Part shown: positions 5,625-60,347 of the stretch, one piece after another
Layout of the letters: each line of letters opens with the position of its first letter
Numbering within the stretch: position 1 is the stretch's first letter
Source: an uncultured Candidatus Saccharibacteria bacterium
GTDB taxonomy: Bacteria; Patescibacteriota; UBA1384; DTJR01
DNA length: 64,000 bases
Assembly: GCA_964487045.1 (NCBI GenBank)
Contig: CAZAOT010000003.1
Location: forward strand, 3,730-67,729
Reading direction: 5' to 3'
The notes under the pieces: generated by a model
What the model was told of the DNA's origin: nothing
Databases searched by the model: none
The model's input: the letters and a program-made list of their open reading frames with translations, nothing else
Translations under genes and position numbers: made by a program

Positions 5625-5873
5625 GCCTCTCCTTTGAAGATTGAAAAGTTATCCACAAGCAACCTGAGTGTAGGTTGAATGCTATCCTGTCGTCAAGTGC
5701 CCTGTGGATAACTTAATTTTAAACCTGTAAATAATCAACTTAGATAAAATATTATATGTTCTTGTTCGGCTTTTGTTTCCATCGCCTGTGGATAACTTGT
5801 GGATAATTGTGGATAACTTTTTTATTGATTGTTTTGAAAAATATTTTTTGATGACCTTGTTTCTAAGTTAGCC
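5625..5873. promoter_or_regulatory. oriC part 1: DnaA boxes plus AT-rich unwinding region upstream of dnaA
   Basis: TTATCCACA at 5649-5657. TGTGGATAA at 5704-5712. Three tandem TGTGGATAA at 5787-5795, 5798-5806 and 5808-5816. AT-rich tracts at 5720-5760 and 5821-5850. Confidence 0.7.
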
Positions 5874-8162: not shown

Positions 8163-8987
8163 ATGACACAATTTTTTTACAACCTAGTCGTTTTGTTCTC
8201 GTATCTGACCCCTCAGCATTATTTCTGGGTGTCGATCGTGCTGATCACTATCCTGATTCGCTTAATCTTCTTGAGGCCAACCTTCACGATGATGAAGACC
8301 CAGAAGAAACAGAAAAATGTTTCTAAGCGCCTTGCCGAGATAAAGGTGCAGTACAAAGACAATCCAAAAGCGCAGCAGGAAGCGACCATGGCTGTCTACA
8401 AAGAGGAAGGAATCAATCCACTTGGCTCTTGTCTTCCACTTATTATTCAGATGGTTTTGCTGTTTGGCTTTTATCAGATTTTCCGATTAAGCAACCTCGA
8501 TGTTGTAAAGACCGACATGCTCTACTCGTTTATGCCAAAGCCAGAGCATTTAAATACATGGTTCTTAGGCGTAGATCTCACGAAAACAGTCGCCGAAGTT
8601 ATCAAGGGTCCGGTTGGTTGGGTCGGATATATCTTCCCACTTCTAACTGGAGGTACTCAGTTGATCCAGTCCCTACAGGCCAGAAGTCTTCAGCCAGCTG
8701 CTGAAAAAGGTAGCAAAGAGGGCGATTTCTCACGTGCAATGACTGCCCAGATGACCTACTTCTTCCCGTTAATTACTACCTACATCTCCTACACTCTTCC
8801 AACTGCCCTTTCGATCTATTGGATTACTCAGACCGTCGCGATGATAATTCAGCAGTACTTCATCATGAAGAAATTCAAAGAAGAGGAGTTGGTTGCAGAG
8901 GAAGTCGCTGAAGTACTCGGAGCCAAGCAGATAAAGCAGTTCAAGAAGGGTGACGTAGTTGTTACGGTCAGAGACAAAAATAAATAG
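8163..8987 (+). CDS. yidC: YidC/Oxa1-family membrane insertase (short Gram-positive-like form)
   Basis: 274 aa polytopic protein following yidD. Conserved C-terminal TM core and basic tail. Confidence 0.85.
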   Translation: MTQFFYNLVVLFSYLTPQHYFWVSIVLITILIRLIFLRPTFTMMKTQKKQKNVSKRLAEIKVQYKDNPKAQQEATMAVYKEEGINPLGSCLPLIIQMVLLFGFYQIFRLSNLDVVKTDMLYSFMPKPEHLNTWFLGVDLTKTVAEVIKGPVGWVGYIFPLLTGGTQLIQSLQARSLQPAAEKGSKEGDFSRAMTAQMTYFFPLITTYISYTLPTALSIYWITQTVAMIIQQYFIMKKFKEEELVAEEVAEVLGAKQIKQFKKGDVVVTVRDKNK

Positions 8988-9282: not shown

Positions 9283-9372
9283 TGGCGGAGAGGGTGGGAT
9301 TCGAACCCACGAGACCCTTGCGAGCCCAACAGTTTTCGAGACTGTCCTGTTCAACCACTCCAGCACCTCTCC
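9283..9372 (-). tRNA. tRNA-Ser (anticodon CGA), long variable arm, CCA encoded
   Basis: Minus strand: GGAGAGG-TG-CTGG..AGTGGTTGAA..-ACAGT-CTCGAAA-ACTGT-long variable arm-GTGGG-TTCGAAT-CCCAC-CCTCTCC-G-CCA. Upstream promoter TTGATT-N17-TAATAT at 9385-9413 (minus). Confidence 0.8.
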
Positions 9373-9478
9373 AACTTTTTGTATATTACCTTTTAACCGA
9401 GGGCAAATCAATCTGTTTAAAAAGAAATTGCCCTTCAAGCGCTGTGCTATCGGGGCAATTGGTGTAGGCGGGTAGCTT

Positions 9479-10204
9479 CTAGTTAGATCGCATTTCGGCT
9501 ACCACGGTGCAAATCTGCTCGGGCGAAGGAGCGTGAGGCAGCTTGATCCGACCGAGGCAAAGCTCAGCTGTCTCGTCGATCCTCCCGCCCAAAAGCGTGG
9601 TCGTCTCGAGGATAGCCCTTGCCCCCTTGGGCAGCCACTCGTCCTCGAGCTTCTCGATGAAGCTGACCGCACCATCCTCGTCGAAGATCCCTCCTGGCTC
9701 TAGCTCGCAAAGCATTCCGATGAAGAAGTCCCCAGGCATAAGCTTCCAGAGTTCCTCGCGGAGCTCTGTTACCGACAAGACGAGGTGACACTTCGCGAAC
9801 ACCTTGCCGAGAAGTACATCTCGAAGTCCTTCGCCGTACATGCCAGAGCCGCAGAAGCTAGCGATAAGCGCTGTGCCACTTGGCGCGCCATGTGCCAAAT
9901 GAGGCGCTAGGATGTCCCCAAAATGCATATACGTATCGTGAGAAACAGCCTTGCCGGCAAGCGCCCGTCTAGCATCTTCGAACGAATGAGAGGTGACGAT
10001 CCTGTGGTCGTAGCAGCTTCGTGGAATGATCGGGATCCAACCGCTTAGCTGAACAGGAGCCATCTTTGGGTCTGGTGGGATTGCCCAGATGTAGAGCCTT
10101 TTCCCGCACGAGCAGCCCTGCCCGCTGTAGAAGAAGTCGTCATCCATCTCGGCCTTGATCGCATCGCGCTGCTCGCTGCGAATCCGTGCTCGGCTATGTG
10201 GCAT
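9479..10204 (-). CDS. Orphan protein B (about 241 aa from the SD-supported ATG; the ORF extends to 10252) in a GC-rich island
   Basis: GC-rich ORF. GGGAGGG SD 11 nt upstream of the ATG at 10204. No family recognised. Confidence 0.45.
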   Translation of the reverse strand: MPHSRARIRSEQRDAIKAEMDDDFFYSGQGCSCGKRLYIWAIPPDPKMAPVQLSGWIPIIPRSCYDHRIVTSHSFEDARRALAGKAVSHDTYMHFGDILAPHLAHGAPSGTALIASFCGSGMYGEGLRDVLLGKVFAKCHLVLSVTELREELWKLMPGDFFIGMLCELEPGGIFDEDGAVSFIEKLEDEWLPKGARAILETTTLLGGRIDETAELCLGRIKLPHAPSPEQICTVVAEMRSN

Positions 10205-13350: not shown

Positions 13351-13776
13351 TTATTCTAGGCTTCCGCTGCCAAAGCTGTTTACTACTCCATTGTAGATAA
13401 TTAGAGCTGCTAGAACAATCACAATTCCGATAATAGCGTTTGTAATTGCGGTTCGTCCTTTTCCTGCTTTTTCAGCATCTCCACCAGCTGTGATGTATAG
13501 AACGCCTCCGTAAACCAAGTAAATCACTGCCAATATACCGATTACTGTAAGCAAGATGTTAACGATGTTTGTTATTGTGTCTGTTAAGCTAATATCACCC
13601 CTTGGCGTTAAGGGATTCACTTCATTCAAATCAATCTGTGCAAAAGCGACTGAAGTCCAGGCGCCCGCTGCTAATACTGCTGTTCCCACTTTGGCCGAAA
13701 CATTTTTGAGTAACTTCATAACCCTCCTAGTTGATTTACTAATATATATTCTAAAGACGTTTTCAAAGCTTGTCAA
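13351..13776 (-). CDS. VirB2/TrbC-like small membrane protein (paralog 5 of the GGD-motif family)
   Basis: 141 aa. Signal peptide + two TM helices + ITAGGDAEKAGKG motif. Shared with the proteins at 17821-19354. Confidence 0.5.
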   Translation of the reverse strand: MTSFENVFRIYISKSTRRVMKLLKNVSAKVGTAVLAAGAWTSVAFAQIDLNEVNPLTPRGDISLTDTITNIVNILLTVIGILAVIYLVYGGVLYITAGGDAEKAGKGRTAITNAIIGIVIVLAALIIYNGVVNSFGSGSLE

Positions 13777-14771
13777 ATATTGTCAATTTTGTGAATTCCG
13801 TCAGAGGCGAATAAATAAATTTCTGAGCCAGAGAAGATTATATCACTTACTTCAGGTAGCGTGCTTAGGTCAATCTTTCTAATTATTTTGGAGGGGTTTG
13901 AAATGTTCGAAATTATAAGATTTTGTCCGTCTGTATTCGAAACAATCGCAAGTCGATTGTTAGAGTAATCTGTTAGACGAAGCGAGGTTGTGTCAATTTT
14001 TGTGCGGGATTTGGTGTCTAGGTTTAGCAATTGTACCTCGCTTTCAAACTCGAATTCTTCTGATTGGATCAGTAGCTGCCCAGCTCCTGCTTGTTTTGCA
14101 TCAGAAATAAATCCGTTTTGGAAAATCTTGGTGGTTGTTCCAGTTGCTGTATTTAGTTCGATTAAATCATTTGATTCGTACCCGGAATTATTTTGAACGA
14201 TTATCGCTTTTTCAGGTTGCGTGAGAATAATTCTTCTCGGGGGAGCAAACTTCAAATCAACTATTTTTCTCTGGTTCTTTCCATCAGGGTCAGAGTAAAT
14301 TATCCTGTTAACCGTGTTTGGATCGTATTCATAGTCTTGTGAAAAGCAATTTGCCAAAATAGTGGACTCATCTTTCCAGGTAATAGCTTCGGCAAGACAC
14401 TGCTCTATTTTTATTACCTTTCCTGATTCAACGTCAACAATATAATTTTCGCTGCCATCACCTTTTTCTATGGCAACTATCACCTTTGAATTCGACGGAG
14501 ATGGGTAGTAATCCAGGATCTTGCTGGAGCCCTGGTAGATTATTTTTCTTGATCCATCTGCCTGAGTAAGAACTAGGTTCTTGCTTTCGAAAATATAAAA
14601 TAGGCTTCCCTGAATTAGCGTTGGTTTTTCGGCGATATCACTTGAAACCAGCTCATGACTTTGATTGATCGAGGCGACGTTTGGCTCCTCTCTGTTGTTG
14701 AAAATAATAAACCCAGCAACGAGAGCAGTAATTATCCCTATGAAGATTAAATATCTTTTTTTATTGTTCAT
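13773..14771 (-). CDS. Signal-anchored exported protein with a beta-propeller-like repeat region
   Basis: 332 aa. N-terminal TM. Repetitive D/S/G-rich strands. No family recognised. Confidence 0.4.
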   Translation of the reverse strand: MNNKKRYLIFIGIITALVAGFIIFNNREEPNVASINQSHELVSSDIAEKPTLIQGSLFYIFESKNLVLTQADGSRKIIYQGSSKILDYYPSPSNSKVIVAIEKGDGSENYIVDVESGKVIKIEQCLAEAITWKDESTILANCFSQDYEYDPNTVNRIIYSDPDGKNQRKIVDLKFAPPRRIILTQPEKAIIVQNNSGYESNDLIELNTATGTTTKIFQNGFISDAKQAGAGQLLIQSEEFEFESEVQLLNLDTKSRTKIDTTSLRLTDYSNNRLAIVSNTDGQNLIISNISNPSKIIRKIDLSTLPEVSDIIFSGSEIYLFASDGIHKIDNI

Positions 14772-20909: not shown

Positions 20910-22298
20910 TTATTTGTAATCAGCTTTTACAAATTCTCCGCTGAAGAGACCCGTTTTGTTTGAGTAATAAAAATTGTCCGCATTGGCTGTGAATGAACTT
21001 GCTGATTTAAGGCCGGTAATTTCTGCAAAATAATCGAGCGACTTTGTACTGAGATTATATTTGATCGGCCGGCCGTCTGAGACTGCGGCCAGAGTGTTCT
21101 CATCGCTGAATGCTATTAGTTTGTTTGAGACCTTGAAAGGCAAGGCTTGGACTTTTAGATCTTGGCCAACTTGATAGGCGATGCCGTCTGAATCGAGAGC
21201 GACTGCGTACTTTGCGTTTGGTCCCCAGCTGGCGAAGACGAAATTTTTATCTGATTCAACGCGAGCATACTGGCGAAGAGGGATGCTCAAAATTCCTAAT
21301 TGTCCACCGGCAATTAGCACCTTGTCTGGACTTTCACCCCAGTCGAACATTGGATTGGTGAAGCCCTGATCAAATTGCATAATCATATTTGCCTCGCTGT
21401 GGTCGCGATTGGCGAGATAAACATCCCAGCCGTATGAACTAAGAAGGTCATAGATAAGATGAGAATTTGCTTTGGCAAAATATGAACTTTCGGAGTTGTT
21501 CCAGGCGATGGAGTGAATTGCCGAAGCTAGCGGAGGTAATTTAGCCTCGACTTGATTGACTAGATCTGTCTTGGAAAAGTCGACGATCTTAATTGCCTCG
21601 TTATCTAATACGAGGGCAAAGCTATTGTCCTTGGAGATCTTAATGATTTTAGCGGTTGGATAAACACCATTTGTCAGTTTATCGGCTACAGCTTTATTGT
21701 CAGTAAGGTTGACGGCCGAAATTGAAGAGTTTTGGTCCAGGTAAAACAGCAATTTTCCATCTGAGGAGATAATTGGGTATCGGCTTCCGGGGATATTTAG
21801 TGTTGGCGTCTTCTCTTTTTCAAATTTAAAGCTAAGCTTCACCGTTTCGGCCATTCTAAAATTTCTGCTTTGAATATATGAAATATAGCCGTTCTTTTCG
21901 GCAATAATTGTGTGAAAGCCGGGCATAACCTTATAAACACCGGGGTCTATTTCGCGCTGGTCAAGAAGAATTCTGTCCGGTCTTGGATCGGGGTTAATTT
22001 CAAATGTCACTCGGTAAAAAAAGAAATAAAATACTGCTGCAAGTGCTAGGATAACCACCAAGACCCAGACAATTATAGTTAGAAGGGGAGACCTTGGGCG
22101 GCGAATTATTGCCTTTTTGCCAACTGAACCGTCTGGTGGCGGGGGTGGCGCTTGAGGTGGAGCTTTTACCTCTGGCGCGGCGGGCGGCTCTACAGGAGGC
22201 TTAGGGGGAGTAGGTGACTGCGAAGAGGGTTCAGTCTCGACTTTCTCGGGGTTCCCGTTTGCGATCTCTTCGATCGGTTTTATTTCATCATTTGCCAT
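20910..22298 (-). CDS. Bitopic membrane protein: Pro-rich N-terminus, one TM, beta-rich extracytoplasmic domain (possible VirB8/VirB10 analogue)
   Basis: 462 aa. PPKPPVEPPAAPEVKAPPQAPPPPP then TM LLTIIVWVLVVILALAAVFYFFF. Sits directly after VirB4. Confidence 0.4.
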   Translation of the reverse strand: MANDEIKPIEEIANGNPEKVETEPSSQSPTPPKPPVEPPAAPEVKAPPQAPPPPPDGSVGKKAIIRRPRSPLLTIIVWVLVVILALAAVFYFFFYRVTFEINPDPRPDRILLDQREIDPGVYKVMPGFHTIIAEKNGYISYIQSRNFRMAETVKLSFKFEKEKTPTLNIPGSRYPIISSDGKLLFYLDQNSSISAVNLTDNKAVADKLTNGVYPTAKIIKISKDNSFALVLDNEAIKIVDFSKTDLVNQVEAKLPPLASAIHSIAWNNSESSYFAKANSHLIYDLLSSYGWDVYLANRDHSEANMIMQFDQGFTNPMFDWGESPDKVLIAGGQLGILSIPLRQYARVESDKNFVFASWGPNAKYAVALDSDGIAYQVGQDLKVQALPFKVSNKLIAFSDENTLAAVSDGRPIKYNLSTKSLDYFAEITGLKSASSFTANADNFYYSNKTGLFSGEFVKADYK

Positions 22299-34105: not shown

Positions 34106-34142
34106 GATGTAACGGCTCAAGCGAGAGGGCATTCTCGCGAGC

Positions 34143-34475
34143 CTAGATGAGTCCGGCGCCACGGAGGGCGGCCTGGACTGCGGCATCTGCCGCAGCCTGG
34201 CGTCCAGCTCCGCGGCCGAACCTGGCCCAGTTATTGACGACCGTGTTGGTCGCCAGATCGAGCTGGGCCGGCGTGGGGGCGGGGACTCCTGCGGCCGTCA
34301 GGGCCGCGGTGATAACCGTGAGCTGCGCCGGCGACGCTACAGCCGGAGCCGCCGGGTTAGCGCCCGGAGCTGTCGGCATGGTAGCCGAGCCAGCCGGACG
34401 GTTGCCCGTCACGTACGTGGTCGCTCCCGAGGGAGCGATCGTGAGGGCACTGGCCGGTCCCTCCATCATGCCCAA
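34143..34475 (-). CDS. GC-rich segment J: Ala/Pro/Gly-rich 110-aa ORF (coding status uncertain, no SD) or ncRNA
   Basis: About 70% GC by eye. Minus-strand TTGACA at about 34531-34526 matches the cassette promoter family. 5' hairpins. ATG preceded by the palindrome GCCCAATTGGGC, no SD. Confidence 0.3.
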   Translation of the reverse strand: MGMMEGPASALTIAPSGATTYVTGNRPAGSATMPTAPGANPAAPAVASPAQLTVITAALTAAGVPAPTPAQLDLATNTVVNNWARFGRGAGRQAAADAAVQAALRGAGLI

Positions 34476-34556
34476 TTGGGCAATGGAGGTGCCGAAGGCC
34501 GGCCCGTCGTTAGGCCGGCGCCAAATGTCAAGATTCGGCGCAATAATAATGAATAA

Positions 34557-34637
34557 AGAAATCCGAAATCCGAAAAAATTCCTAAATAATCAATTTGATT
34601 TTTTGTATTTGTTATTTATTCTTCATTCTGGTTTGAT
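34557..34637 (+). repeat. AT-rich intergenic repeat, copy 1 (about 90% identical to 37481-37553)
   Basis: GAAATCCGAAATCCGAAAAAATTCCTAAATAATCAATTTGATTTTTTGTATTTGTTATTTATTCTTCATTCT. Confidence 0.7.
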
Positions 34638-37382: not shown

Positions 37383-37480
37383 AAAAATCCTTTGGTAATT
37401 TCTTACTTATTGGCTAGATCTTACCATACGAAGGGATCTTTTTCAATTTTATAGCACGAGCTTGAGAATTCTCAAATTAA

Positions 37481-37553
37481 GAAATCCGAATAACGAAAAA
37501 ATTCCTAAATTATCAATTTGAGTTTTTTGTATTTGTTATTTATTCTTCATTCT
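37481..37553 (+). repeat. AT-rich intergenic repeat, copy 2
   Basis: GAAATCCGAATAACGAAAAAATTCCTAAATTATCAATTTGAGTTTTTTGTATTTGTTATTTATTCTTCATTCT. Confidence 0.7.
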
Positions 37554-37586
37554 TTTTTCTGGCTTGGTTATTATTCATGCCCAGTC

Positions 37587-37683: not shown

Positions 37684-38832
37684 ATGGCTAAGATGATCGG
37701 GATTGTTCGGTTGGGTGGGGAGCATCTCGTCGCTGAGGACTCAACGTTCCTCATCGGCGAGCTCAACAATGGTGACGAGGTATTCGTCGCCGGTAAGCCC
37801 CGTGGCACTGCCCGGCGCGTCGCTGAGACGCTCGGCAAGGACCAGGTCTTCCTGGTCTGCGAACTGGTCGAAAACGACCGCGGTGGCCAGAAGTATCGGG
37901 TCACCGAACCCGTGCAGGTGCTCGGGCTGGCCGAGAGCTTCGGCTCCCGCAACATGCTGCCCGCGGCTCTGCCCGGGCGCTTCGAGGGTTGGCTCGACAT
38001 GCTCCGCGACGGCAAGTTGCGGAAGGTGCGGGTCCCCGCCGATCTGGCTCTGGAAGGTCCCGCCCTCGCCCCCTCGCCGACCACCCCGCCGACCGCCCTG
38101 GGCGCCGCGCTCGGGAAGGCCGGCATGAAGGCCACCGAGGCGCCCGCCACCGAGGCGCCGCAGTCCACGCTGATCGACAGCGCGGGTGCGGCCAAGATCA
38201 TCGCGGAGGGCATCAAGGCCCTCCGGCCGGTCACGAGCGCTCTCGTCGTTACCGACCAGGAGCGCGACGCGCTCCAGGAGGCGATCGGCGCCCGCTTCCC
38301 GCGGGCGGCATTCGACTCCAGCCAGGCTGCGTCGGCCCAGGCCAACATGGAGCGCGTGCTCCAGGACGTACAGCAGCGCCGCCGCGAGGCGGCCGAGCAT
38401 TTCTTCGCCGAACTCGCGTCGTTCTGCGAGGGCAATATGGCCCTCCAGCTCGGCGTCCTCGGTGGGGATCTGCCGACGCTCAACGAGAAGGGGAACCCCA
38501 CCTGGGGCTCCACTCTCGACGAGCTCCTCGGTACCATGTCCACCGCCGAGGCTGCTGTTCTCGGCGCGACCGATCTGCCGGGCTACCCCGAGCCGGACTT
38601 GGCCCAAGGTCGTGGCGATGACCAGCCCGAACCCCCGCCGGATCCCGAGGGCGACAAGCCCGAAGACGAAGCCGAGGCCGCCACGGCCGAGGAGGGCGTC
38701 CACCCCATCGCCGCTGCCCAGGAGGGTGGCGTCAAGGCTGAGAAGGCCGCGCCCGCGACTACCAAGAAGCCGGCGGCGCGCAAGCCTCGCAAGACGGCAG
38801 CCGAGAAGGCCGCGACCGGCACCGACGGCTAG
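37684..38832 (+). CDS. Orphan protein D (382 aa), very GC-rich, with a C-terminal Ala/Pro/Lys/Glu-rich histone-H1-like tail
   Basis: About 65-70% GC by eye. All six frames are open around it, so only the promoter/SD-supported frame is called. Tail ...KAEKAAPATTKKPAARKPRKTAAEKAATG. Confidence 0.5.
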   Translation: MAKMIGIVRLGGEHLVAEDSTFLIGELNNGDEVFVAGKPRGTARRVAETLGKDQVFLVCELVENDRGGQKYRVTEPVQVLGLAESFGSRNMLPAALPGRFEGWLDMLRDGKLRKVRVPADLALEGPALAPSPTTPPTALGAALGKAGMKATEAPATEAPQSTLIDSAGAAKIIAEGIKALRPVTSALVVTDQERDALQEAIGARFPRAAFDSSQAASAQANMERVLQDVQQRRREAAEHFFAELASFCEGNMALQLGVLGGDLPTLNEKGNPTWGSTLDELLGTMSTAEAAVLGATDLPGYPEPDLAQGRGDDQPEPPPDPEGDKPEDEAEAATAEEGVHPIAAAQEGGVKAEKAAPATTKKPAARKPRKTAAEKAATGTDG

Positions 38833-40213: not shown

Positions 40214-40401
40214 GAAAGAATCAAGGAGAAAAGATGTAGAATTGTCAAATTAACAATTAAAAATGTCCAATCAATTATTAAATTCATAAATTAATAATTT
40301 GATTAATTTTCACATTAAGACATTTTTTAAAACATTCAACATTGTTAATTTGGAAATTCGTAAATATCTATTGTTAATTTATTAATTTTTGGCCCATATA
40401 C

Positions 40402-40430
40402 TTGACTTTTGGGGCGTTTTGTGGTATATT
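40402..40430 (+). promoter_or_regulatory. Promoter of cassette E (TTGACT-N17-TGgTATATT)
   Basis: -35 at 40402-40407 and -10 at 40425-40430. About 150-nt structured leader with hairpin CCCTCGC-TTGA-GCGAGGG. Confidence 0.6.
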
Positions 40431-40586
40431 ATCTTGTTCACGATTAGGAGGGGAAAGATCTCTTGGTCGAGAACGTTGACAATTCGAACCCCCTCGCTTG
40501 AGCGAGGGAGACATGCCGGACGAGGTCTCATCCTCCTCGTCATTGCAGCAGCGCTGCCGGTAACCATCACCTAGGAGGTGATTCGG

Positions 40587-41597
40587 ATGAGTAAGATCGA
40601 CCCGCGTTTCGATGGTATGGTTGTGGATTCTGTAGAGCAGGTCGGGACTGTCCCGGCTGAGCTCATCGCTGCGTTCCCGGAGCTCGGCGACGCAATGTAT
40701 TGCGTCGTTGAAATAGCCCGTGGGCAGCGCCGCAACAAGTATGTTGCGGCTGTCCGGCGCCAGTGCGCAAGCGCCGACTTCCGGGACGGCAGTGGTCCAG
40801 GCCACTGCCATTGGTTCTTTGATGCGGACTACAAGTCCGTCAAGGAGCTCGTTCGCGCGACGCGGTGGGCTATGCCCGCCGTGACCGACATGAGCACGCG
40901 CCAGCTCGGCGCACTGCTCGTTGCTGCGATCCGTCGTGGCAACTGCGAAATCGTAGTTGGCGATGTTGTTGTCGCTAGCTACGGAGGCTTCCTCGAGGAG
41001 GCCCTTCGCGAAATGGTTCGCCGCTCGCAAGCGGCGAACAGCCTCAAGGACGAAGCCAGCCGTTGGCTGGCGCAGCACTTTGAGGACGAGTCCATCGCCG
41101 TTGATGGCGGCTGGACTCACCCGGCCATTGACTGGCTGGCGTGGGTATTCGCCAGTCGTCAGCGCGAAAGCGCATTTGGCGATCTCGGTGGGGAGGCGAA
41201 CCGCTGGGTTCGGGAAACGCCCATCACGGGCGGACCTGAGCAGTGGGGCTGCCTGCGGGGTTTGCCCGCCGTACGCACCGAGGTCCGGGCATACGAAGAT
41301 CGCGGCGCGGAGCCGCAGATCTACCTCCCCAACGGGGAGAATTTCTCCGTCCGCCGCCTCATCGGCGGTGGGTACTTCCGCCTCGCGGAGGATGGGGTCT
41401 ACGACCTCTTCCTGCGCCGCGGGGCGGCGGAGATCGGTGACAAGGGCCTGATGTGGGCCCGCGTCACTGAGGACGGAAAGGTTGTCGCGGCGGTCGATCC
41501 GCTGCACAACTATGGGGGTTTGGGCGAGTTTGCCTATACCCCCCTGATGGGGCGCCTGCACAAGGCTCTCCAGGCGGCCGTTGCTGCCGAACAGTAG
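40587..41597 (+). CDS. Orphan protein E (336 aa) in a GC-rich island
   Basis: SD AGGAGG (40573-40578) then ATG at 40587. No family recognised. Antisense 395-aa ORF judged spurious. Confidence 0.5.
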   Translation: MSKIDPRFDGMVVDSVEQVGTVPAELIAAFPELGDAMYCVVEIARGQRRNKYVAAVRRQCASADFRDGSGPGHCHWFFDADYKSVKELVRATRWAMPAVTDMSTRQLGALLVAAIRRGNCEIVVGDVVVASYGGFLEEALREMVRRSQAANSLKDEASRWLAQHFEDESIAVDGGWTHPAIDWLAWVFASRQRESAFGDLGGEANRWVRETPITGGPEQWGCLRGLPAVRTEVRAYEDRGAEPQIYLPNGENFSVRRLIGGGYFRLAEDGVYDLFLRRGAAEIGDKGLMWARVTEDGKVVAAVDPLHNYGGLGEFAYTPLMGRLHKALQAAVAAEQ

Positions 41598-57400: not shown

Positions 57401-58037
57401 GGCAGCAGTACCCAATCAAATTGCCAAACTTGATCTTACGATGGAGGGAAAACGTGCTAAGATCGCCGGAATTCTTTCGGAGGTCAAGAAGATCAATACT
57501 AGAAGCGGTCAGCAAATGGCTTTTGCTAAAATAGAAGACCTTTCTGGAAAAACCGAAATATTAGTCTTCCCGAAGCTTCTTGCTGACACTAATGAGCTAT
57601 GGCAGAGCGACAATATTCTGATAGTTTCCGGAAAAATTTCGACCAAAGATAATGAGGTTAAGCTTTTAGCGGATGCAGCTGAGAAATTTGATCCGTCCAA
57701 AGTCGATGCAAGCAAAGTTATAACCGTGTCCGATGATGATGAAATTGTCGAGATCGACTTGGGAGAGGAGCCGGAGCTAGATAGTTTAGAATCTTCTTTA
57801 ACTAAAGCATTTAAGGATGGGAAGGTATTGTTTGAAAAAGACCTTGAGCTATATGTAATTCTGACAGGCAAAGTTGATAAGGATAAATTGGTCAGTTTAA
57901 AGGAAATTTTTGAAAAAAATCCAGGGGATAAAAAGGTTGTTCTAGCTTATAAGAAAAATGGTCATTTTGAATTCAAGAAAACCAAAGTACTCGTGGGGAA
58001 GTTAAAAGAAGAAGAGATAAAGAAGGTTTTGGGGTGA
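54471..58037 (+). CDS. dnaE: DNA polymerase III alpha subunit
   Basis: PHP domain HLHVHSHYSLLDG at the N-terminus. About 1190 aa. The ATG at 54471 is preferred over the ORF-track start at 54417. Confidence 0.9.
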   Translation: MNKPFVHLHVHSHYSLLDGLGTPAQIIERAKELGMNSVALTDHGSMYGVIEFYKAAKAAEIKPIIGMEAYVAPRLLSEKVSKLDSNPYHLILLAKNLDGYLNLLRLSSIGHLEGFYYKPRVDKVTLKKYSKGLIATSACLAGELSRMLLSNDEESARRALGEYKEIFGDDFYIELQDHPDIRDQGLANEKLIALAKETNTPMTVACDSHYIRKEDRAAHDVLVCVQIGKTVDDPTRMTYDGDFSLRDPKELYEAFKDVPEALENTQKIADMCALEIPFEENLLPIFKIDSKQTPDEFLREQCLKGLPERYPDLDETKKKELMERLDYELGVIAKMGFSSYFLIVADYVKWAKSSGIMVGPGRGSAAGALVTYLTYITDVDPIRYGLLFERFLNPDRLEMPDIDLDFADHRRGEVLNYVVNKYGEDRVAGVITFGTMAARAAVRDVGRALGMPYAEVDAISKVIPPPVQGRHIPLEKSIKNAPELREFYTKDPRAKRLLDMAIKLEGTVRHAGQHASAFVITQDELVCYVPLQQAQKEGVKQVTQYSMYPVAELGLLKMDFLGLSNLTIIERALGIIEAVDGEKIDIFNLPLDDLKTFHLLGRAETTGVFQLESSGMKRYIKDLQPTSIDDVAVMVALYRPGPMQFIDSFIKRKNGREKIEYPHEATKSALEVTYGIPVYQEQVMQISKDMAGFTGGEADKLRKAMGKKIAKLMAEMKEKFIKGSVKNGVSQKDAEKVFSMLEDFAAYGFNKSHAVCYAMIAYQTAYLKANYPQSFMAALLTSDLDDTDRIGIEIEECNKMGIQVLPPDVNESFVDFGVVKDTGNIRFGLAAIKGIGESPARIITRERKKNGPFKSLEDFIDRMIKTDVEGVTDRSVLNKKILESLARSGALDNLAERNQILEGMEIITKRIQESSKQKKTAQIGLFGEVLSADIELGKLELPEVEPATQADRLAWEKAHLGIYLSEHPLKEVGGLLRAAVPNQIAKLDLTMEGKRAKIAGILSEVKKINTRSGQQMAFAKIEDLSGKTEILVFPKLLADTNELWQSDNILIVSGKISTKDNEVKLLADAAEKFDPSKVDASKVITVSDDDEIVEIDLGEEPELDSLESSLTKAFKDGKVLFEKDLELYVILTGKVDKDKLVSLKEIFEKNPGDKKVVLAYKKNGHFEFKKTKVLVGKLKEEEIKKVLG

Positions 58038-58077
58038 TTTTTTTGAGAGCCTTCAGCTCGCATGTAATGTTAACAAC

Positions 58078-58110
58078 CCAGGGGACACTTTCGGTGCGTC
58101 CCCTAGGTTT
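58078..58110 (+). terminator. Intrinsic terminator after dnaE
   Basis: AGGGGACACTTTCGGTGCGTCCCCT hairpin followed by AGGTTTTT. Confidence 0.55.
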
Positions 58111-58329
58111 TTAACGATTTCCTCACCCTCCTAACGCCCTTTGTGTAGCTCTTTTTGTTGAACCTTCTGGAATTCATCCTCGAACAAGTTTGTCGAGGTA
58201 ATCAGTTCCAGCTTTCAACATCAAAGAGCATCTACTTTTAAAGTCTCGAAGCCCGCTTCTTCGACTTTTTATTAATTTTTTTGCTTCCAAGGGTTGATTT
58301 TTTTTAAAAATATGATAAAGTTTTTTTAC

Positions 58330-58640
58330 ATTATTGTTTCCGGTCCCTAGGGACCAACGAGCGTTCCCTCACCGAGGGAGCACCACAACCAGGCCTGAGG
58401 GGCGGCGGAATCCAGAGCCGTCGCCTCTCAGGGAAAAACTAGGCTTCGCGTCAACGCCCTCCTCCAGAGAATAGGCGCGAAGATGCACCACCGCGGGCTG
58501 CGTGCGCGATATGGCGCAGCCGGGCCAAGGCGGGCGACTGGCCTCCTTTGAAGGGGTCGATGGCTGGTCGCCCGTCTCCCAAACACACAAGGGCTGACTT
58601 TCTTGCGATCGTCAGCCCTATTTGATTCTCGTCCCGTTAG
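58330..58640 (+). ncRNA. Candidate structured ncRNA Ia (about 300 nt), GC-rich, plus strand
   Basis: A 15-bp stem with two G·U pairs (CCTGAGGGGCGGCGG / CCGTCGCCTCTCAGG). A 12-bp stem with two G·U pairs (GGGCGACTGGCC / GGCTGGTCGCCC). These are plus-strand-specific. 3' hairpin GGGCTGAC..GTCAGCCC followed by TATTTG. No convincing ORF. Confidence 0.3.
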
Positions 58641-58736
58641 AGATAAGTAATATTTTATCAACCGAATTATGCTTCAAAATTTTAAACTAATACAAGAACC
58701 ATTTTTATAAAAAATTTCTAACGGGGTAAACAGGTG

Positions 58737-58765
58737 TTGACTTCTGTAAATTTTCATATTAATAT
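58737..58765 (+). promoter_or_regulatory. Promoter of candidate ncRNA Ib (TTGACT-N17-TAATAT)
   Basis: -35 at 58737-58742 and -10 at 58760-58765. Confidence 0.5.
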
Positions 58766-58774
58766 TTATGTTAC

Positions 58775-59792
58775 GAGTGTAGGATGATCGCTAAGATCGT
58801 TCTACGCAGAACGTGGAAAGGGGTTTTGCTTATGATTCTCTGTGGTTCCATCGCCATCGTCTGACAACCGGCGCCTCTAACGATCTCACGATCGTAAGAG
58901 AAAGGGGATCTAGTGATCAGAGCGAGTCCGTAACCACGCCTTTCACATCGCCGGCTGAAATGCCGGCCCTGACCAAACCCAAGCTGTACCAATTAGTCGC
59001 AAAGTTGCTGATCGACGGACTTCTCTTGCGGCGAAAGCCGCCCCGACCGGCCAATGGGCCAGAAGACAAGAGGCTGAAGAAACATGCGTGCACGTTGTCG
59101 CGGCCACACCGTCGTATCCACCTTCTCCTTCGAGATCGCGCTGGTTCTCTAGGGAAACTCGCAAACCCGGGGATGCAGATCTCTGAAAGTCTCTGCACCA
59201 GCCATCTTGCTAGAACCCGCAAGGGCCGACTTCAAACGCTCCACCCTAACAAGGGACGGGAAAGCTGGCCAATCCGCGGCGGGGGACGCCGGCGCGCACT
59301 AGGCCGTAAGAGCTAGGGATGCGCGGCGGCTAAACGCCCGCCAAGCCCGAGTCGAAGGACCCGGAATGGAGCAAGTAGCCAAAGCAGTGACGGAGCGGAC
59401 ATAGTTCGCGCTCCCTATATCTGCTTGCGCTGGCATTGCCAAGGCACGCCGAGCCTGCGTGGCTCACAGAGTGCTTCATGGCGAGAAATGCATGCCCATT
59501 CCGGCTCTGCAATCCTACACATTAGGACGATGGGGTTGCGCCTGGAAAAGCATCAGGGTGTGATGCGAGCGAGGCTGATCGCTGGAATGGCCCTGGATAG
59601 AGGGTTTTGGCGAGGATGTCTTGCGGTGAGGCTGGTCCCTTCGGGGACTCCCCAGCCGGTGGCTGGGGAGCTAGTCTACTCATTTCGCCTTGGTGCGTTT
59701 GCCCAGGCGGGATTTTCCATAGGGCTCGAGTGTTTCACTCGGGCCCAAGTTGTTTTATAAAAGCAAAAAAGTGCCTCACGGGCACTCTTTTT
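58775..59792 (+). ncRNA. Candidate large structured ncRNA Ib (about 1 kb), GC-rich, promoter-to-terminator
   Basis: No ORF longer than 167 codons in about 65% GC DNA, and the longest is Arg-rich and GTG-initiated. cUUCGg tetraloop hairpin GGTCCCTTCGGGGACT. Hairpin CCCCAGCC-GGT-GGCTGGGG. Strong terminator AGTGCCTCACGGGCACT followed by CTTTTTT at 59766-59792. Confidence 0.35.
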
Positions 59793-59810: not shown

Positions 59811-60347
59811 TTACTGATTGGTTGGTACTGGTGGAACTGGTGGCAGGGGAACAGATGAACTTTGAGCTGAGGCAGTAGAACTGGCCGCAGCGGTTGAGCT
59901 AGCAACCGGTGTTCCTGGGATTGGCGGCGTACCAATATCACCCGTGCCGGAATTTGATGAGCCTAGGTAAGGACATTCGGTTTCGCCTTTTTGTTCTACG
60001 CATCTCCAATATTTGATCGTTTGGTTAAGATCAAGCGAACTGACAAGTCCAGCGCTTTCACTTTGAGCATCAACTAGATTATATTCAGGTTCGATTTTTA
60101 GCCAGTGTACAACGATAGAGTTGATGTCTAGCGCGCTTACCACTCCATCATCCAAAATATCGCCGCTTATCCTGGGTGGATTAGGAACAAATGGTTTTTC
60201 TGAGGGAATTCCTGATGGATCTGGAGGAGTAGGTGGGTTAGAGTCAGCTGAAGGCTGGCTAGACCATACCACGTAGCTCAAAACACCTGCCAAAACAACA
60301 ACGCTGATGGCAGAAATAAATGTTAATAGTATCGCTTTTTTAGTCAT
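59811..60347 (-). CDS. Secreted protein with a dockerin-like repeat pair and a Pro/Ser/Ala-rich tail
   Basis: Signal anchor. GDILDDGVVSALDINSIV and LVSSLDLNQTIKYW resemble dockerin type I Ca-binding repeats. Confidence 0.45.
   Translation of the reverse strand: MTKKAILLTFISAISVVVLAGVLSYVVWSSQPSADSNPPTPPDPSGIPSEKPFVPNPPRISGDILDDGVVSALDINSIVVHWLKIEPEYNLVDAQSESAGLVSSLDLNQTIKYWRCVEQKGETECPYLGSSNSGTGDIGTPPIPGTPVASSTAAASSTASAQSSSVPLPPVPPVPTNQ

What the first reader, a model, noticed from the sequence alone, without database searches (positions are those of the whole stretch)
58330..58640. About 300-nt GC-rich element after dnaE with long G·U-containing stems (strand-specific RNA structure)
Two long helices (15 bp and 12 bp) each contain two G·U pairs. 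These would be C·A mismatches on the other strand, so the structure exists only in a plus-strand transcript. No ORF has a ribosome-binding site. A hairpin followed by TATTTG at the 3' end could terminate it. This is a candidate ncRNA, distinct from Ib.
Basis: seen in the sequence. Interest (0 to 1): 0.55.

Follow-up and report, generated by a model that had tools for sequence, protein, structure and literature searches.

The report
Conserved structured small RNA after dnaE
The GC-rich stretch after dnaE is most likely a real, previously undescribed, roughly 300-nucleotide non-coding RNA gene of a Patescibacteria (CPR) bacterium, with its own promoter, seven hairpins and a terminator; a second species keeps the same layout, but its function is unknown.

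Summary
Window 58340-58630 is 64-65% GC, in a window that averages 46%. It is non-coding and folds on the + strand into a string of seven hairpins (MFE -148.6 kcal/mol, z -5.3). The minus strand gives z -1.8. Two of the nine longest + strand stems in the whole 64 kb lie here. All 89 predicted pairs are standard on +, and 10 are G·U, which would be C·A mismatches on the minus strand.

Rfam, ARAGORN, phage and plasmid BLAST, and a six-frame search of 5.8 billion proteins found nothing. One homologue turned up in another species (L047; dnaE 76.6% nt identity). It shares the extended -10 promoter, a collinear 285-nt body (CM 63 bits, nhmmer E 4e-13), the terminator hairpin, compensatory pair changes, and a CCUCCUCCA motif in the loop of hairpin 3. 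In L047 the RNA is about 790 nt long.

The element is the first of two tandem GC-rich RNA genes between dnaE and a 178-aa gene, in an intergenic region where such RNAs vary between lineages. I rate it a new, narrowly distributed ncRNA family. Transcription and function are untested. The anti-Shine-Dalgarno-like loop is only a lead.

The parts
58294..58321 (+). Candidate promoter: -35 TTGATT (58294-58299), 16-nt spacer, extended -10 TG (58313-58314), -10 TAAAGT (58316-58321). The predicted transcription start is near A58328.
   Evidence: Read from the sequence. It scores 8 of 12, below the scan threshold. It is homologous to the L047 promoter TTGATA-16-TAGAGT with TG, which the scan does report. 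blastn gives 78.6% over 42 nt between window 58291-58332 and L047 8805-8846; alignment.
58328..58630 (+). Predicted RNA of about 300 nt (el1): seven hairpins joined by A/C-rich single-stranded linkers.
   Evidence: Folds. The centroid is almost the same as the MFE structure. 49 of 63 confidently unpaired bases are A or C. A collinear homologue lies at L047 9348-9632.
58342..58355 (+). H0: 5-bp hairpin GGUCC-CUAG-GGACC.
   Evidence: L047 has a 5-bp, 4-nt-loop hairpin of different sequence (CCUCG-CUUG-CGAGG) aligned to it by the CM, with 3 double changes. That alignment is fitted to the structure.
58363..58381 (+). H1: 8-bp hairpin with 1 G·U.
   Evidence: It is not alignable in L047, where a 37-nt insertion holds a different small hairpin.
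58394..58432 (+). H2: 15-bp helix with 2 G·U and a 9-nt loop, AAUCCAGAG.
   Evidence: L047 has a 12-bp hairpin of unrelated sequence at the same place, between conserved flanks (CACCAC... and CUAGGCUUCGCG).
58444..58482 (+). H3: 9-bp stem (1 G·U) carrying a 21-nt loop. The loop holds the conserved pyrimidine motif CCUCCUCCA at 58458-58466.
   Evidence: The stem sequence (CUAGGCUUCGCG ... GGCGCGA-GAU) and the motif are conserved in L047 while the rest of the loop differs. There are two one-sided changes, both through G·U.
58496..58521 (+). H4: 8-bp stem (1 G·U) with a 10-nt loop.
   Evidence: L047 folds an 8-bp, 10-nt-loop hairpin of different sequence at the corresponding place.
58522..58580 (+). 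H5: long helix made of a 3-bp base, a 16-bp stem (3 G·U) and a 5-bp tip (2 G·U).
   Evidence: Against L047 it shows 4 one-sided changes through G·U, 1 broken pair and 5 double changes (3 in the 16-bp stem, 2 in the tip). Three of the double changes (G-C to C-G, C-G to U-A, C-G to U-A) follow without gaps from identical anchor sequences.
58590..58630 (+). H6: terminator-like hairpin (9-bp stem AGGGCUGAC/GUCAGCCCU, with a 2-bp inner stem) followed by UAUUUGAUUCU.
   Evidence: The stem sequence is unchanged in L047 over the 8 bp GGGCUGAC/GUCAGCCC (the outermost A-U pair is absent there), and it is followed there by UUUUGCUUUUU. The same hairpin-linker-terminator module is what the CMs pick up at the 3' ends of neighbouring islands in other lineages.
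58246..58270 (+). Context: terminator-like hairpin plus a T-run that probably ends the dnaE transcript upstream of el1.
58737..59790 (+). It has promoter TTGACT-17-TAATAT, an SD-like GGAAAGGGG (58815-58823), a 10-codon mini-ORF (58832-58864) and terminators at 59722-59746 and 59770-59786.
   Evidence: Syntenic counterparts exist in L002, L015, L017, L018, L044 and L047.

Best explanation
Window ~58328-58630 (+) is a free-standing gene for a structured non-coding RNA of about 300 nt in a Patescibacteria (CPR) genome. It would be transcribed from its own extended -10 promoter (TTGATT-16-TGaTAAAGT) and end at a GC-rich hairpin followed by a U-rich tail. The RNA folds into seven hairpins joined by A/C-rich linkers.

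Shown here: the structure is present, non-random and strand-specific. The element does not encode protein. Its promoter, hairpin layout and terminator are conserved in a second species, with compensatory changes.

Inferred: that it is transcribed and stable.

Speculative mechanism (about 0.25 on its own): it acts in trans through the conserved, exposed loop CCUCCUCCA of hairpin 3. This loop has the same sense as the anti-Shine-Dalgarno end of 16S rRNA, so it could pair with purine-rich, SD-like sequences in other RNAs, or bind a protein that recognises pyrimidine tracts. The GC-rich helices would then provide stability.
For: 1. Structure beyond chance, and specific to the + strand.
- z is -5.3 on + and -1.8 on minus.
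- Two of the nine + strand stems of 15 bp or more in 64 kb lie here, and the minus strand of the element has none of 10 bp or more.
- All 89 modelled pairs are standard on +. Ten are G·U, which would be C·A on minus, and there is no 1x1 A·C mismatch.

2. Non-coding.
- There is no codon periodicity, and stops occur in all frames.
- No SD-plus-start ORF exists.
- A six-frame translation finds nothing at E<=1 among 5.8e9 proteins.

3. Homologue in L047 (NCBI GCA_041890195.1), whose dnaE is 76.6% identical in nucleotides.
- The promoter block is 78.6% identical over 42 nt, and the body gives blastn E 3e-14 and nhmmer E 4e-13.
- The CM of the 3' half scores 63 bits (E 2e-16), and the CM of the 5' half scores 25.6 bits, collinear with it.
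- The promoter scan independently calls the L047 promoter (9 of 12 plus TG).

4. Pair conservation.
- 97-99% of cells are paired, against 35-53% when the partner is slid.
- There are 6 + 12 double changes and 5 + 3 one-sided changes, all of the latter via G·U.
- Three double changes in H5 are anchored without gaps.

5. The CCUCCUCCA loop motif and the terminator stem are conserved while the surrounding loop sequence differs.

6. Single copy. k-mer assemblies from four samples read straight through it, but all four break at the upstream repeat at window 58237. No second copy is found in the window.

7. By analogy, the adjacent sister RNA el2 is 99.2% identical in a strain whose flanking genes are 91-96% identical, with nearly all their changes at third codon positions.
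Against: - There are no expression data of any kind.
- Only two distinct sequences are available, and one alignment is fitted to the structure, so the covariation is suggestive and not statistically established.
- The window promoter scores only 8 of 12, and its U-tract is degenerate (UAUUUGAUU).
- In L047 the two strands fold equally well (-152.9 against -152.6 kcal/mol).
- Strongly negative z-scores are common in this genome's GC-rich islands, including coding-like ones.
- Very long, perfect helices are unusual for ribozymes and riboswitches, and are also typical of intergenic repeat or terminator elements.
- For the loop mechanism, pairing of el1 loops with the el2 leader is no better than shuffles (H3 loop p 0.42). 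TGGAGGAGG-like sites are not enriched in the window (16 found, 12 expected).
- The L047 version is 500 nt longer, so the window copy could be a truncated derivative.
Confidence: 0.7

Rival explanations
1. It is not an independent RNA. It would be the 3' structural and terminator module of a longer or composite transcript: a truncated remnant of the ~790-nt RNA seen in L047, or a domain co-transcribed and processed with el2. It would then work mainly as a stability or termination element, shielding el2 from dnaE read-through.
For: - In L047 the homologous 285 nt are the 3' end of a continuous ~790-nt GC-rich unit driven by the same promoter.
- The best-conserved parts are the base of H5 and the terminator.
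- The CMs mainly pick up the generic hairpin-linker-terminator module at the 3' ends of other islands.
Against: - The promoter is conserved directly upstream of the short window version.
- Hairpins H0-H4 and the H3 loop motif are kept as well, not just the terminator.
- el2 has its own strong promoter, 110 nt downstream of the el1 terminator.
Confidence: 0.13
2. It is functionless GC-rich DNA: a remnant of horizontally acquired or mobile DNA, or a pile-up of REP-like intergenic hairpins in a junk-rich region. The apparent structure would be a by-product.
For: - The region after dnaE is full of hairpin repeats (58069-58115, 58150-58232, 58246-58264; z -6.3).
- The 58150-58232 element recurs in L018 and L032.
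- GC-rich islands of unrelated sequence occupy this intergenic region in other lineages.
- No homologue was found in relatives at about 80% DnaE identity.
Against: - A homologue survives in a species whose dnaE is 23% diverged in nucleotides, with helices kept by compensatory and G·U changes.
- It is single copy.
- The G·U to A·C ratio in stems is 10 to 0, not the even split expected from neutral decay of a DNA palindrome.
- 65% GC should erode in a 45% GC genome unless it is selected or very recent.
Confidence: 0.1
3. It is a degraded or mis-read protein-coding gene, for example the minus-strand ORF that is called as a 190-aa gene in L047.
For: - A gene caller annotated a 190-aa minus-strand ORF across the L047 island.
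- The first 300 nt of that ORF show mild codon-position GC differences.
- Other GC-rich islands in the window do look coding (37684-38832, GC3 0.85).
Against: - The window copy has stops in all six frames and no periodicity.
- tblastn of the 190-aa product against el1 finds only a 7-residue match lying over an identical DNA block.
- There are no protein homologues for any frame and no Pfam hit on record for the L047 ORF.
- Substitutions come as paired changes across helices, not as synonymous changes.
Confidence: 0.03
4. It is a DNA-level element, such as single-stranded DNA hairpins used as a recombination or replication site or as a protein-binding platform, sited next to the replication genes dnaE, dnaX, dnaB and an HU-like gene.
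For: - The location is inside a cluster of replication genes.
- It contains long, perfect inverted repeats.
Against: - G·T wobble positions weaken DNA hairpins, and they favour one strand only.
- The promoter and terminator are conserved in the + orientation.
- Cumulative GC skew shows no switch across the region.
- I saw no DnaA-box-like repeats when reading the sequence by eye; no formal scan was run.
Confidence: 0.04

Closest known systems
Stand-alone bacterial sRNAs that use C/U-rich loops to pair with Shine-Dalgarno regions (for example RsaE/RoxS and S. aureus RNAIII hairpins; from my own knowledge)
   Same: It is an own-promoter, own-terminator unit in an intergenic region. It presents a conserved, exposed pyrimidine-rich motif on a stable hairpin. 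It has no coding capacity.
   Different: There is no sequence or structure match to any Rfam sRNA. It is much more GC-rich and helix-rich, with 15-21 bp stems. It is 300-790 nt long, not about 100. No target was identified, and the complementarity tests were negative.
Structured ncRNAs of unknown function found as long GC-rich intergenic regions in AT-richer genomes (the Breaker-lab GC-IGR/DIMPL approach, PMC8723152 and PMC11109978; classes such as OLE, ROOL, GOLLD, HEARO and raiA)
   Same: It shows the same discovery signature: a GC-rich, strongly folding, non-coding intergenic island in a lower-GC genome, with the structure conserved across species.
   Different: None of those Rfam models matches. 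The known distribution is two species of one Patescibacteria lineage. The length is very variable (300 against 790 nt). It is made mostly of long regular hairpins, not of intricate junctions.
REP/BIME-like intergenic hairpin repeats and intrinsic terminators
   Same: It consists of stable GC-rich hairpins directly downstream of a gene. The last hairpin is terminator-like. True repeat hairpins lie just upstream (58150-58232).
   Different: It is single copy. It has a conserved promoter. It holds seven different hairpins with conserved order. G·U pairs are confined to one strand, and it shows compensatory changes.
The neighbouring el2-type ('A-type') GC-rich RNA genes in the same intergenic region
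   Same: They share the same intergenic region, strand and gene-like layout (sigma-70 promoter, GC-rich folded body, hairpin plus U-rich terminator). They share the same pattern of fast sequence turnover between lineages.
   Different: There is no sequence similarity. el2-type RNAs carry a conserved 5' GGAUGA...GAAAGGAG motif with a mini-ORF, which el1 lacks.

Membership tests
Any Rfam 15 family (including RNase P, 6S, SRP, tmRNA, OLE, ROOL, GOLLD, HEARO, raiA, RsaE, ribozymes, and group I and II introns) | A covariance-model score at or above the family's gathering threshold. | tested here: not met
   There is no hit at gathering score in the window apart from two tRNAs. At E<=10, on 2.5 kb and on el1 alone, only chance hairpin matches appear (17.7 bits against a threshold of 55, and similar).
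tmRNA | A tRNA-like domain plus a tag-peptide reading frame. | tested here: not met
   ARAGORN finds only tRNA-Ser and tRNA-Gln in the window.
Independent bacterial sRNA / ncRNA gene (generic kind) | Its own promoter upstream and an intrinsic terminator downstream, on the same strand. | tested here: met
   The window has TTGATT-16-TG-TAAAGT (8 of 12 plus an extended -10). This is homologous to the L047 promoter that the scan calls. The terminator hairpin is conserved and has a full U-tract in L047. These are sequence-level predictions only.
Independent bacterial sRNA / ncRNA gene (generic kind) | No protein-coding capacity. | tested here: met
Independent bacterial sRNA / ncRNA gene (generic kind) | Secondary structure conserved by covariation among homologues. 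| tested here: inconclusive
   Only two distinct sequences are available. 97-99% of cells are paired, with 18 double and 8 one-sided (G·U) changes and 3 broken cells. Three double changes are anchored without gaps. This is too few sequences for a statistical test.
Independent bacterial sRNA / ncRNA gene (generic kind) | A detectable discrete transcript. | not testable with these tools
   No RNA-seq data were accessible.
REP/MITE-like repeat element | Multiple dispersed copies in the genome, or terminal inverted repeats with a target duplication. | tested here: not met
   There is no second copy in 64 kb by blastn or CM. Four k-mer assemblies traverse it but break at the upstream repeat. No convincing terminal repeats were found. 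Only 64 kb of the genome could be searched directly.
Type I toxin-antitoxin locus | A small hydrophobic ORF with a ribosome-binding site in a structured mRNA, plus a complementary antisense RNA. | tested here: not met
   el1 has no SD-plus-start ORF. The mini-ORFs after the SD in the neighbouring el2-type RNAs differ in length and sequence between lineages: 21, 11, 10, 9, 8 and 5 codons, and none in L018. el1-el2 complementarity is not above shuffles.
CsrB/RsmZ-type protein-sponge RNA | Many GGA motifs displayed in hairpin loops. | tested here: not met
   The confidently unpaired segments hold only 7 G in 63 nt, and none of the listed unpaired segments contains GGA.
Riboswitch / cis-regulatory leader | It lies in the 5' UTR of the gene it controls, within one transcription unit. 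| tested here: not met
   It ends in a terminator-like hairpin. The next unit (el2) has its own promoter 110 nt downstream and is itself non-coding.
Retron, or other ncRNA that depends on a reverse transcriptase or nuclease | An adjacent gene for the partner enzyme. | tested here: not met
   The neighbours are dnaE, a 178-aa orphan gene, an HU-like gene, dnaX and dnaB. There is no RT, TnpB or Cas-like ORF within 5 kb.

The most novel reading that the evidence does not exclude
el1 and el2 would belong to a lineage-specific set of fast-diversifying, GC-rich, strongly expressed RNA genes that occupy one intergenic region inside the replication-gene cluster of these Patescibacteria. In this reading el1 is an anti-Shine-Dalgarno mimic: its exposed CCUCCUCCA loop competes with 16S rRNA for the few strongly SD-bearing RNAs. 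Most housekeeping genes in this window lack a strong SD, whereas the neighbouring el2-type RNAs carry a conserved GGAAAGGAG. That would make the pair a new kind of RNA-RNA translational control module, or a ribosome-decoy module, in ultra-small symbiotic bacteria.
Probability: 0.1. Interest if true: 0.75.

Novelty: new member of a known kind. Interest (0 to 1): 0.45.

Why it matters
[quoted passage not shown] Here, a 1.8-kb intergenic region in a highly reduced CPR genome appears to hold two promoter-to-terminator RNA genes. The smaller one now has cross-species support for its structure.

If it is confirmed by RNA-seq, this would be among the first specific regulatory or structural RNAs defined for this large, uncultivated radiation. 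It would also give a concrete locus (dnaE to the 178-aa gene) at which to study how such RNAs change between lineages.

On its own it is a modest finding: a narrowly distributed orphan ncRNA of unknown function.

Tried and rejected
Known RNA families
- Rfam at gathering score and at E<=10, on 2.5 kb and on el1 alone, gave nothing meaningful.
- ARAGORN found no tmRNA.

Searches for homologues that found nothing
- blastn and nhmmer of el1 against 32 syntenic loci from GTDB genomes and JGI metagenomes found no el1 match, although dnaE relatives at 65-82% identity were present.
- Distant-mode BLAST against the phage and plasmid collections found no match.
- Two helix patterns searched in IMG/VR viral contigs found nothing.
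- The six-frame translation of el1, searched as one query against 5.8e9 proteins to catch pseudogenes or spuriously called ORFs in homologues, found nothing at E<=1.
- The spurious 167-aa ORF of el2, used as bait, found only the same strain.

Closer strains
- Contigs with the identical 178-aa neighbour have el1 100% identical, so they add nothing.
- The contig of the 96% relative stops inside el2.
- The route that worked went through the members of the DnaE 90% cluster.

Ideas tested and not supported
- The positional analogue in L044/L045 ('S-type', a ~140-nt promoter-to-terminator unit with an exposed CUCCUCCUC) has no significant sequence similarity to el1. CM hits to it are weak, 16-17 bits. 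I treat it as a possible distant relative, not as a member.
- Anti-SD loop pairing with the el2 leader is not better than shuffles. The H2 loop reaches p 0.04 before correcting for five tests.
- Genome-wide TGGAGGAGG-like sites are not enriched.
- el1 is not an array of internal repeats.
- The protein-coding reading of the L047 minus-strand ORF is rejected.

Failed or weakened approaches
- A look-up of the source contig through DnaE failed.
- The z-score is not a specific discriminator, because other GC-rich islands score as low.

Full report
**Setting**

The window is 45.6% GC overall. It comes from a Patescibacteria (CPR) genome. The closest dnaE relatives are MAGs labelled Patescibacteria or Candidatus Saccharibacteria.

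dnaE ends at 58037. The next gene is a 178-aa orphan on the minus strand at 59811-60347. An HU-like gene, dnaX and dnaB follow it.

The 1.77-kb intergenic region between dnaE and the 178-aa gene holds two GC-rich islands:
- **el1**, the finding, at about 58340-58630.
- **el2**, at about 58775-59790. It has a clear sigma-70 promoter (TTGACT-17-TAATAT, 58737-58765) and terminators.

**Checking the observation**

- The 15-bp helix at 58394-58408 / 58418-58432 has two G·U pairs.
- The second long helix is actually 16 uninterrupted bp (58528-58543 / 58562-58577, 3 G·U) plus a 5-bp tip.
- The 3' hairpin at 58590-58619 is followed by TATTTGATT.

The + strand folds at -148.6 kcal/mol with z -5.3. The minus strand folds at -132.5 with z -1.8.

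A census of uninterrupted stems found only nine of 15 bp or more on the + strand of all 64 kb. Two of them are in el1, and el1's minus strand has none of 10 bp or more.

The predicted + strand helices hold ten G·U pairs and no 1x1 A·C mismatch. On the minus strand, 10 of the 89 pairs would be C·A.

The region has no codon-position GC periodicity, has stops in all six frames, and has no ORF with a usable Shine-Dalgarno plus start.

One caution applies. z-scores of -4 to -7 also occur in other GC-rich islands of this window, including ones with coding-like periodicity, and in the hairpin-rich stretch just upstream. The z-score alone is therefore not diagnostic here. The stem census and the strand asymmetry are the stronger evidence.

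**What it is not**

- Rfam 15 finds nothing at gathering score, and only chance hairpin matches at E<=10.
- ARAGORN finds no tmRNA.
- The phage and plasmid collections and two helix patterns in viral contigs gave no match.
- A six-frame translation of el1 found no protein at E<=1 among 5.8 billion. It is therefore not a recognisable pseudogene, and no homologous region carries a called ORF in a matching frame.
- It is not repeated in the window.
- Four independent k-mer assemblies read straight through it, yet all four end at window 58237. That point is the edge of a real repeat (58150-58232), which recurs in L018 and L032.

**Finding a homologue**

Syntenic loci from relatives with 65-82% DnaE identity all carry GC-rich islands after dnaE. 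None resembles el1 by blastn or nhmmer.

The members of the 90% identity cluster of DnaE led to L047 (NCBI GCA_041890195.1, contig JBEEQD010011373.1). Its dnaE is 76.6% identical in nucleotides to the window's.

Downstream of dnaE, L047 shows three features in order.
- **A promoter.** The scan calls TTGATA-16-TAGAGT with an upstream TG at 8808-8835. This block is homologous to window 58291-58332 (78.6% over 42 nt; alignment). It identifies the window's TTGATT-16-TG-TAAAGT (58294-58321) as the el1 promoter, even though that scores only 8 of 12 and missed the scan threshold. The predicted start is near A58328.
- **A collinear homologue of the whole el1 body** at 9348-9632:
  - blastn gives 76.5% over 115 nt (E 3e-14).
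  - nhmmer gives E 4e-13 over window 58395-58627.
  - The covariance model of the 3' half scores 63 bits (E 2e-16).
  - The model of the 5' half scores 25.6 bits directly upstream.
- **The same terminator stem**, GGGCUGAC/GUCAGCCC, followed in L047 by UUUUGCUUUUU. The promoter of an el2-type RNA follows at 9638-9666.

In L047 the unit is about 790 nt long, because roughly 500 extra GC-rich nucleotides sit between the start site and H0. The window version is the short form.

**Structure conservation**

Folded alone, the L047 segment forms the same series of hairpins.

| Alignment (fitted to the model) | Cells forming standard pairs | Same measure with partner slid | Pairs changed on both sides | One-sided changes | Broken cells |
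|---|---|---|---|---|---|
| 3' half | 98.8% | 35-53% | 6 | 5, all via G·U | 1 |
| 5' half | 97.4% | 43-50% | 12 | 3, all via G·U | 2 |

These alignments lean towards the structure. H2 in particular is a hairpin of unrelated sequence sitting between conserved flanks, so I weight it lightly.

The firmest evidence needs no gapped alignment. In H5, counting outward from the identical blocks CGGGCG and CGCCCG, the pairs change as follows:
- A-U to A·G (broken).
- C-G unchanged.
- U·G to U-A.
- G·U to G-C.
- G-C to C-G.
- C-G to U-A.
- C-G to U-A.

That gives three compensatory double changes and two wobble-to-Watson-Crick changes in a row. The sequence-only MAFFT plus RNAalifold run recovers the base of H5 and H6, with the same one-sided changes.

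All eight one-sided changes keep pairing only if the + strand is read as RNA. With two sequences this is supportive but not statistically conclusive.

**Conserved unpaired sequence**

The unpaired segments of el1 are A/C-rich, 49 of 63 nt.

The one unpaired block conserved between the two species is CCUCCUCCA, at window 58458-58466, in the loop of H3. The H3 stem (CUAGGCUUCGCG ... GGCGCGA-GAU) is conserved, but the rest of the loop is not. The motif has the same sense as the anti-Shine-Dalgarno end of 16S rRNA (my own knowledge).

I tested two obvious consequences, and neither holds.
- El1 loops do not pair with the SD-bearing leader of el2 better than shuffled loops do.
- TGGAGGAGG-like sites are not enriched in the window.

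Most housekeeping genes in the window have weak or no SD sequences, so any such targets would be few. The loop therefore remains a lead and not a mechanism.

**Wider picture**

The intergenic region between dnaE and the 178-aa gene holds gene-like GC-rich RNAs in every lineage examined.

- **el2-type ('A-type') units** have a sigma-70 promoter, a 5' GGAUGA...GAAAGGAG motif and a non-conserved mini-ORF. They occur in the window, L002, L015, L017, L018, L044 and L047.
- **'B-type' units** occur in L001, L014, L041, L042 and L017. Their promoter is TTGACA-17-TG-TAGAGT. A conserved 5' part of about 200 nt is followed by a diverged body in which hairpins are replaced in place.
- **A ~140-nt unit in L044/L045** sits where el1 sits. 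It has a promoter, three hairpins, an exposed CUCCUCCUC and a terminator.

The two-sequence model of el1's 3' half gives weak hits (17-18 bits) at exactly the 3' ends of the B-type unit and the L044 unit, on the correct strand. These may be distant relatives of el1, but I do not count them as members.

For el2, a strain whose flanking genes are 91.1% and 96.2% identical to the window's, with nearly all substitutions at third codon positions, has only 4 differences in 517 nt. These islands are therefore either under strong constraint or recently exchanged.

**Verdict**

El1 is best explained as a genuine + strand ncRNA gene (confidence 0.7). It is a new family, not in Rfam, known so far from two species.

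The rivals, in order of weight, are:
- a 3' structural and terminator module of a longer or composite transcript (0.13);
- functionless GC-rich or repeat-derived DNA (0.10);
- a DNA-level element (0.04);
- a decayed coding gene (0.03).

The one paper I found on the point notes that the model Saccharibacterium TM7x has no validated small RNAs. GC-rich intergenic regions are a recognised signature of structured ncRNAs (PMC8723152, abstract seen). Transcription, full covariation statistics and function still need data that were not available here.

Noticed in passing
window 58737-59790: There is a second, ~1-kb GC-rich non-coding unit (el2). It has promoter TTGACT-17-TAATAT, an SD-like GGAAAGGGG (58815-58823), a 10-codon hydrophobic mini-ORF (MILCGSIAIV, 58832-58864) and two terminator-like hairpins. 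Syntenic counterparts in six other lineages keep only the 5' GGAUGA...GAAAGGAG motif and the overall layout. In a 96% relative (L036) its 3' 517 nt differ at only 4 positions, while the flanking genes are 91-96% identical.
   Followed up: partly
window 59197-59208 (against L035): There is a within-population polymorphism inside el2: a 9-nt deletion (ACCAGCCAT) plus two substitutions. They are the only differences in 2.5 kb between two otherwise identical assemblies.
   Followed up: no
window 58150-58232; also L018 ~5708-5771 and L032 ~524-580: There is a long hairpin repeat whose inner hairpin has the loop ACAAGTTTG (CCTCGA-acaagtttg-TCGAGG). Hairpins with the same loop but different, complementary stems occur after dnaE in L015 and L001. 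All four short-read assemblies of this strain break at window 58237, which suggests a multi-copy REP-like element.
   Followed up: partly
window 37684-38832 (+), ~34130-34510 (-), 40374-41561 (-): These are orphan, very GC-rich (61-78%) apparent protein-coding genes in a 45% GC genome. 37684-38832 has GC3 of 0.85, its own TTGACA-type promoter and a terminator. Two of the three (37684-38832 and 40374-41561) were scanned against Pfam and have no hit; ~34130-34510 was not scanned. The two scanned also fold unusually strongly (z down to -6.8); the z-score for 34150-34440 was -3.7 on + and -4.0 on minus. They may be horizontally acquired or lineage-specific Ala/Pro/Gly-rich proteins.
   Followed up: partly
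window 34560-34630 and 37480-37555: A nearly identical ~75-nt AT-rich sequence (...aaatccgaa...aattcctaaat-atcaatttga-ttttttgtatttgttatttattcttcattc) flanks two of the GC-rich islands. It may mark cassette boundaries or a shared regulatory region.
   Followed up: no
window 58633-58644 and 58714-58725: A 12-nt inverted repeat, CCCGTTAGAGAT / ATTTCTAACGGG, lies 69 nt apart in the AT-rich spacer between the el1 terminator and the -35 of el2. It could be an operator-like site.
   Followed up: no
L044 5600-5790 (minus strand; same in L045): A ~140-nt GC-rich unit lies between dnaE and the el2-type island of another lineage. It has promoter TTGACT-17-TAAATT with TG, three hairpins, a single-stranded CUCCUCCUC and a canonical terminator. 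It is the positional analogue of el1, with only weak CM similarity (16-17 bits). The adjacent island there encodes SD-preceded small ORFs of 21 aa (MRKLLTLLVLALALLANVAIG) and about 54 aa.
   Followed up: partly
L001 4770-5460 = L014 = L041 = L042; L017 6425-6913: 'B-type' GC-rich RNA-like islands have promoter TTGACA-17-TG-TAGAGT. Between two species whose dnaE is 85-90% identical, only the first ~200 nt align well, and some hairpins are replaced in place by hairpins of different sequence. L017 carries an A-type and a B-type island in tandem, in the opposite order to the window.
   Followed up: partly
window, gene starts throughout (for example 13773-14771, 20910-22298, 48247-49341): Most housekeeping genes have AT-rich upstream regions with weak or no Shine-Dalgarno sequence. 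The non-coding el2-type RNAs, by contrast, carry strong SD-like motifs.
   Followed up: no
L047 8991-9563 (minus strand): A 190-aa gene was called across the GC-rich RNA island in the public annotation. It is very probably a spurious ORF. The same applies to the 167-aa ORF at window 58813-59316 inside el2, which is present in public protein collections.
   Followed up: yes
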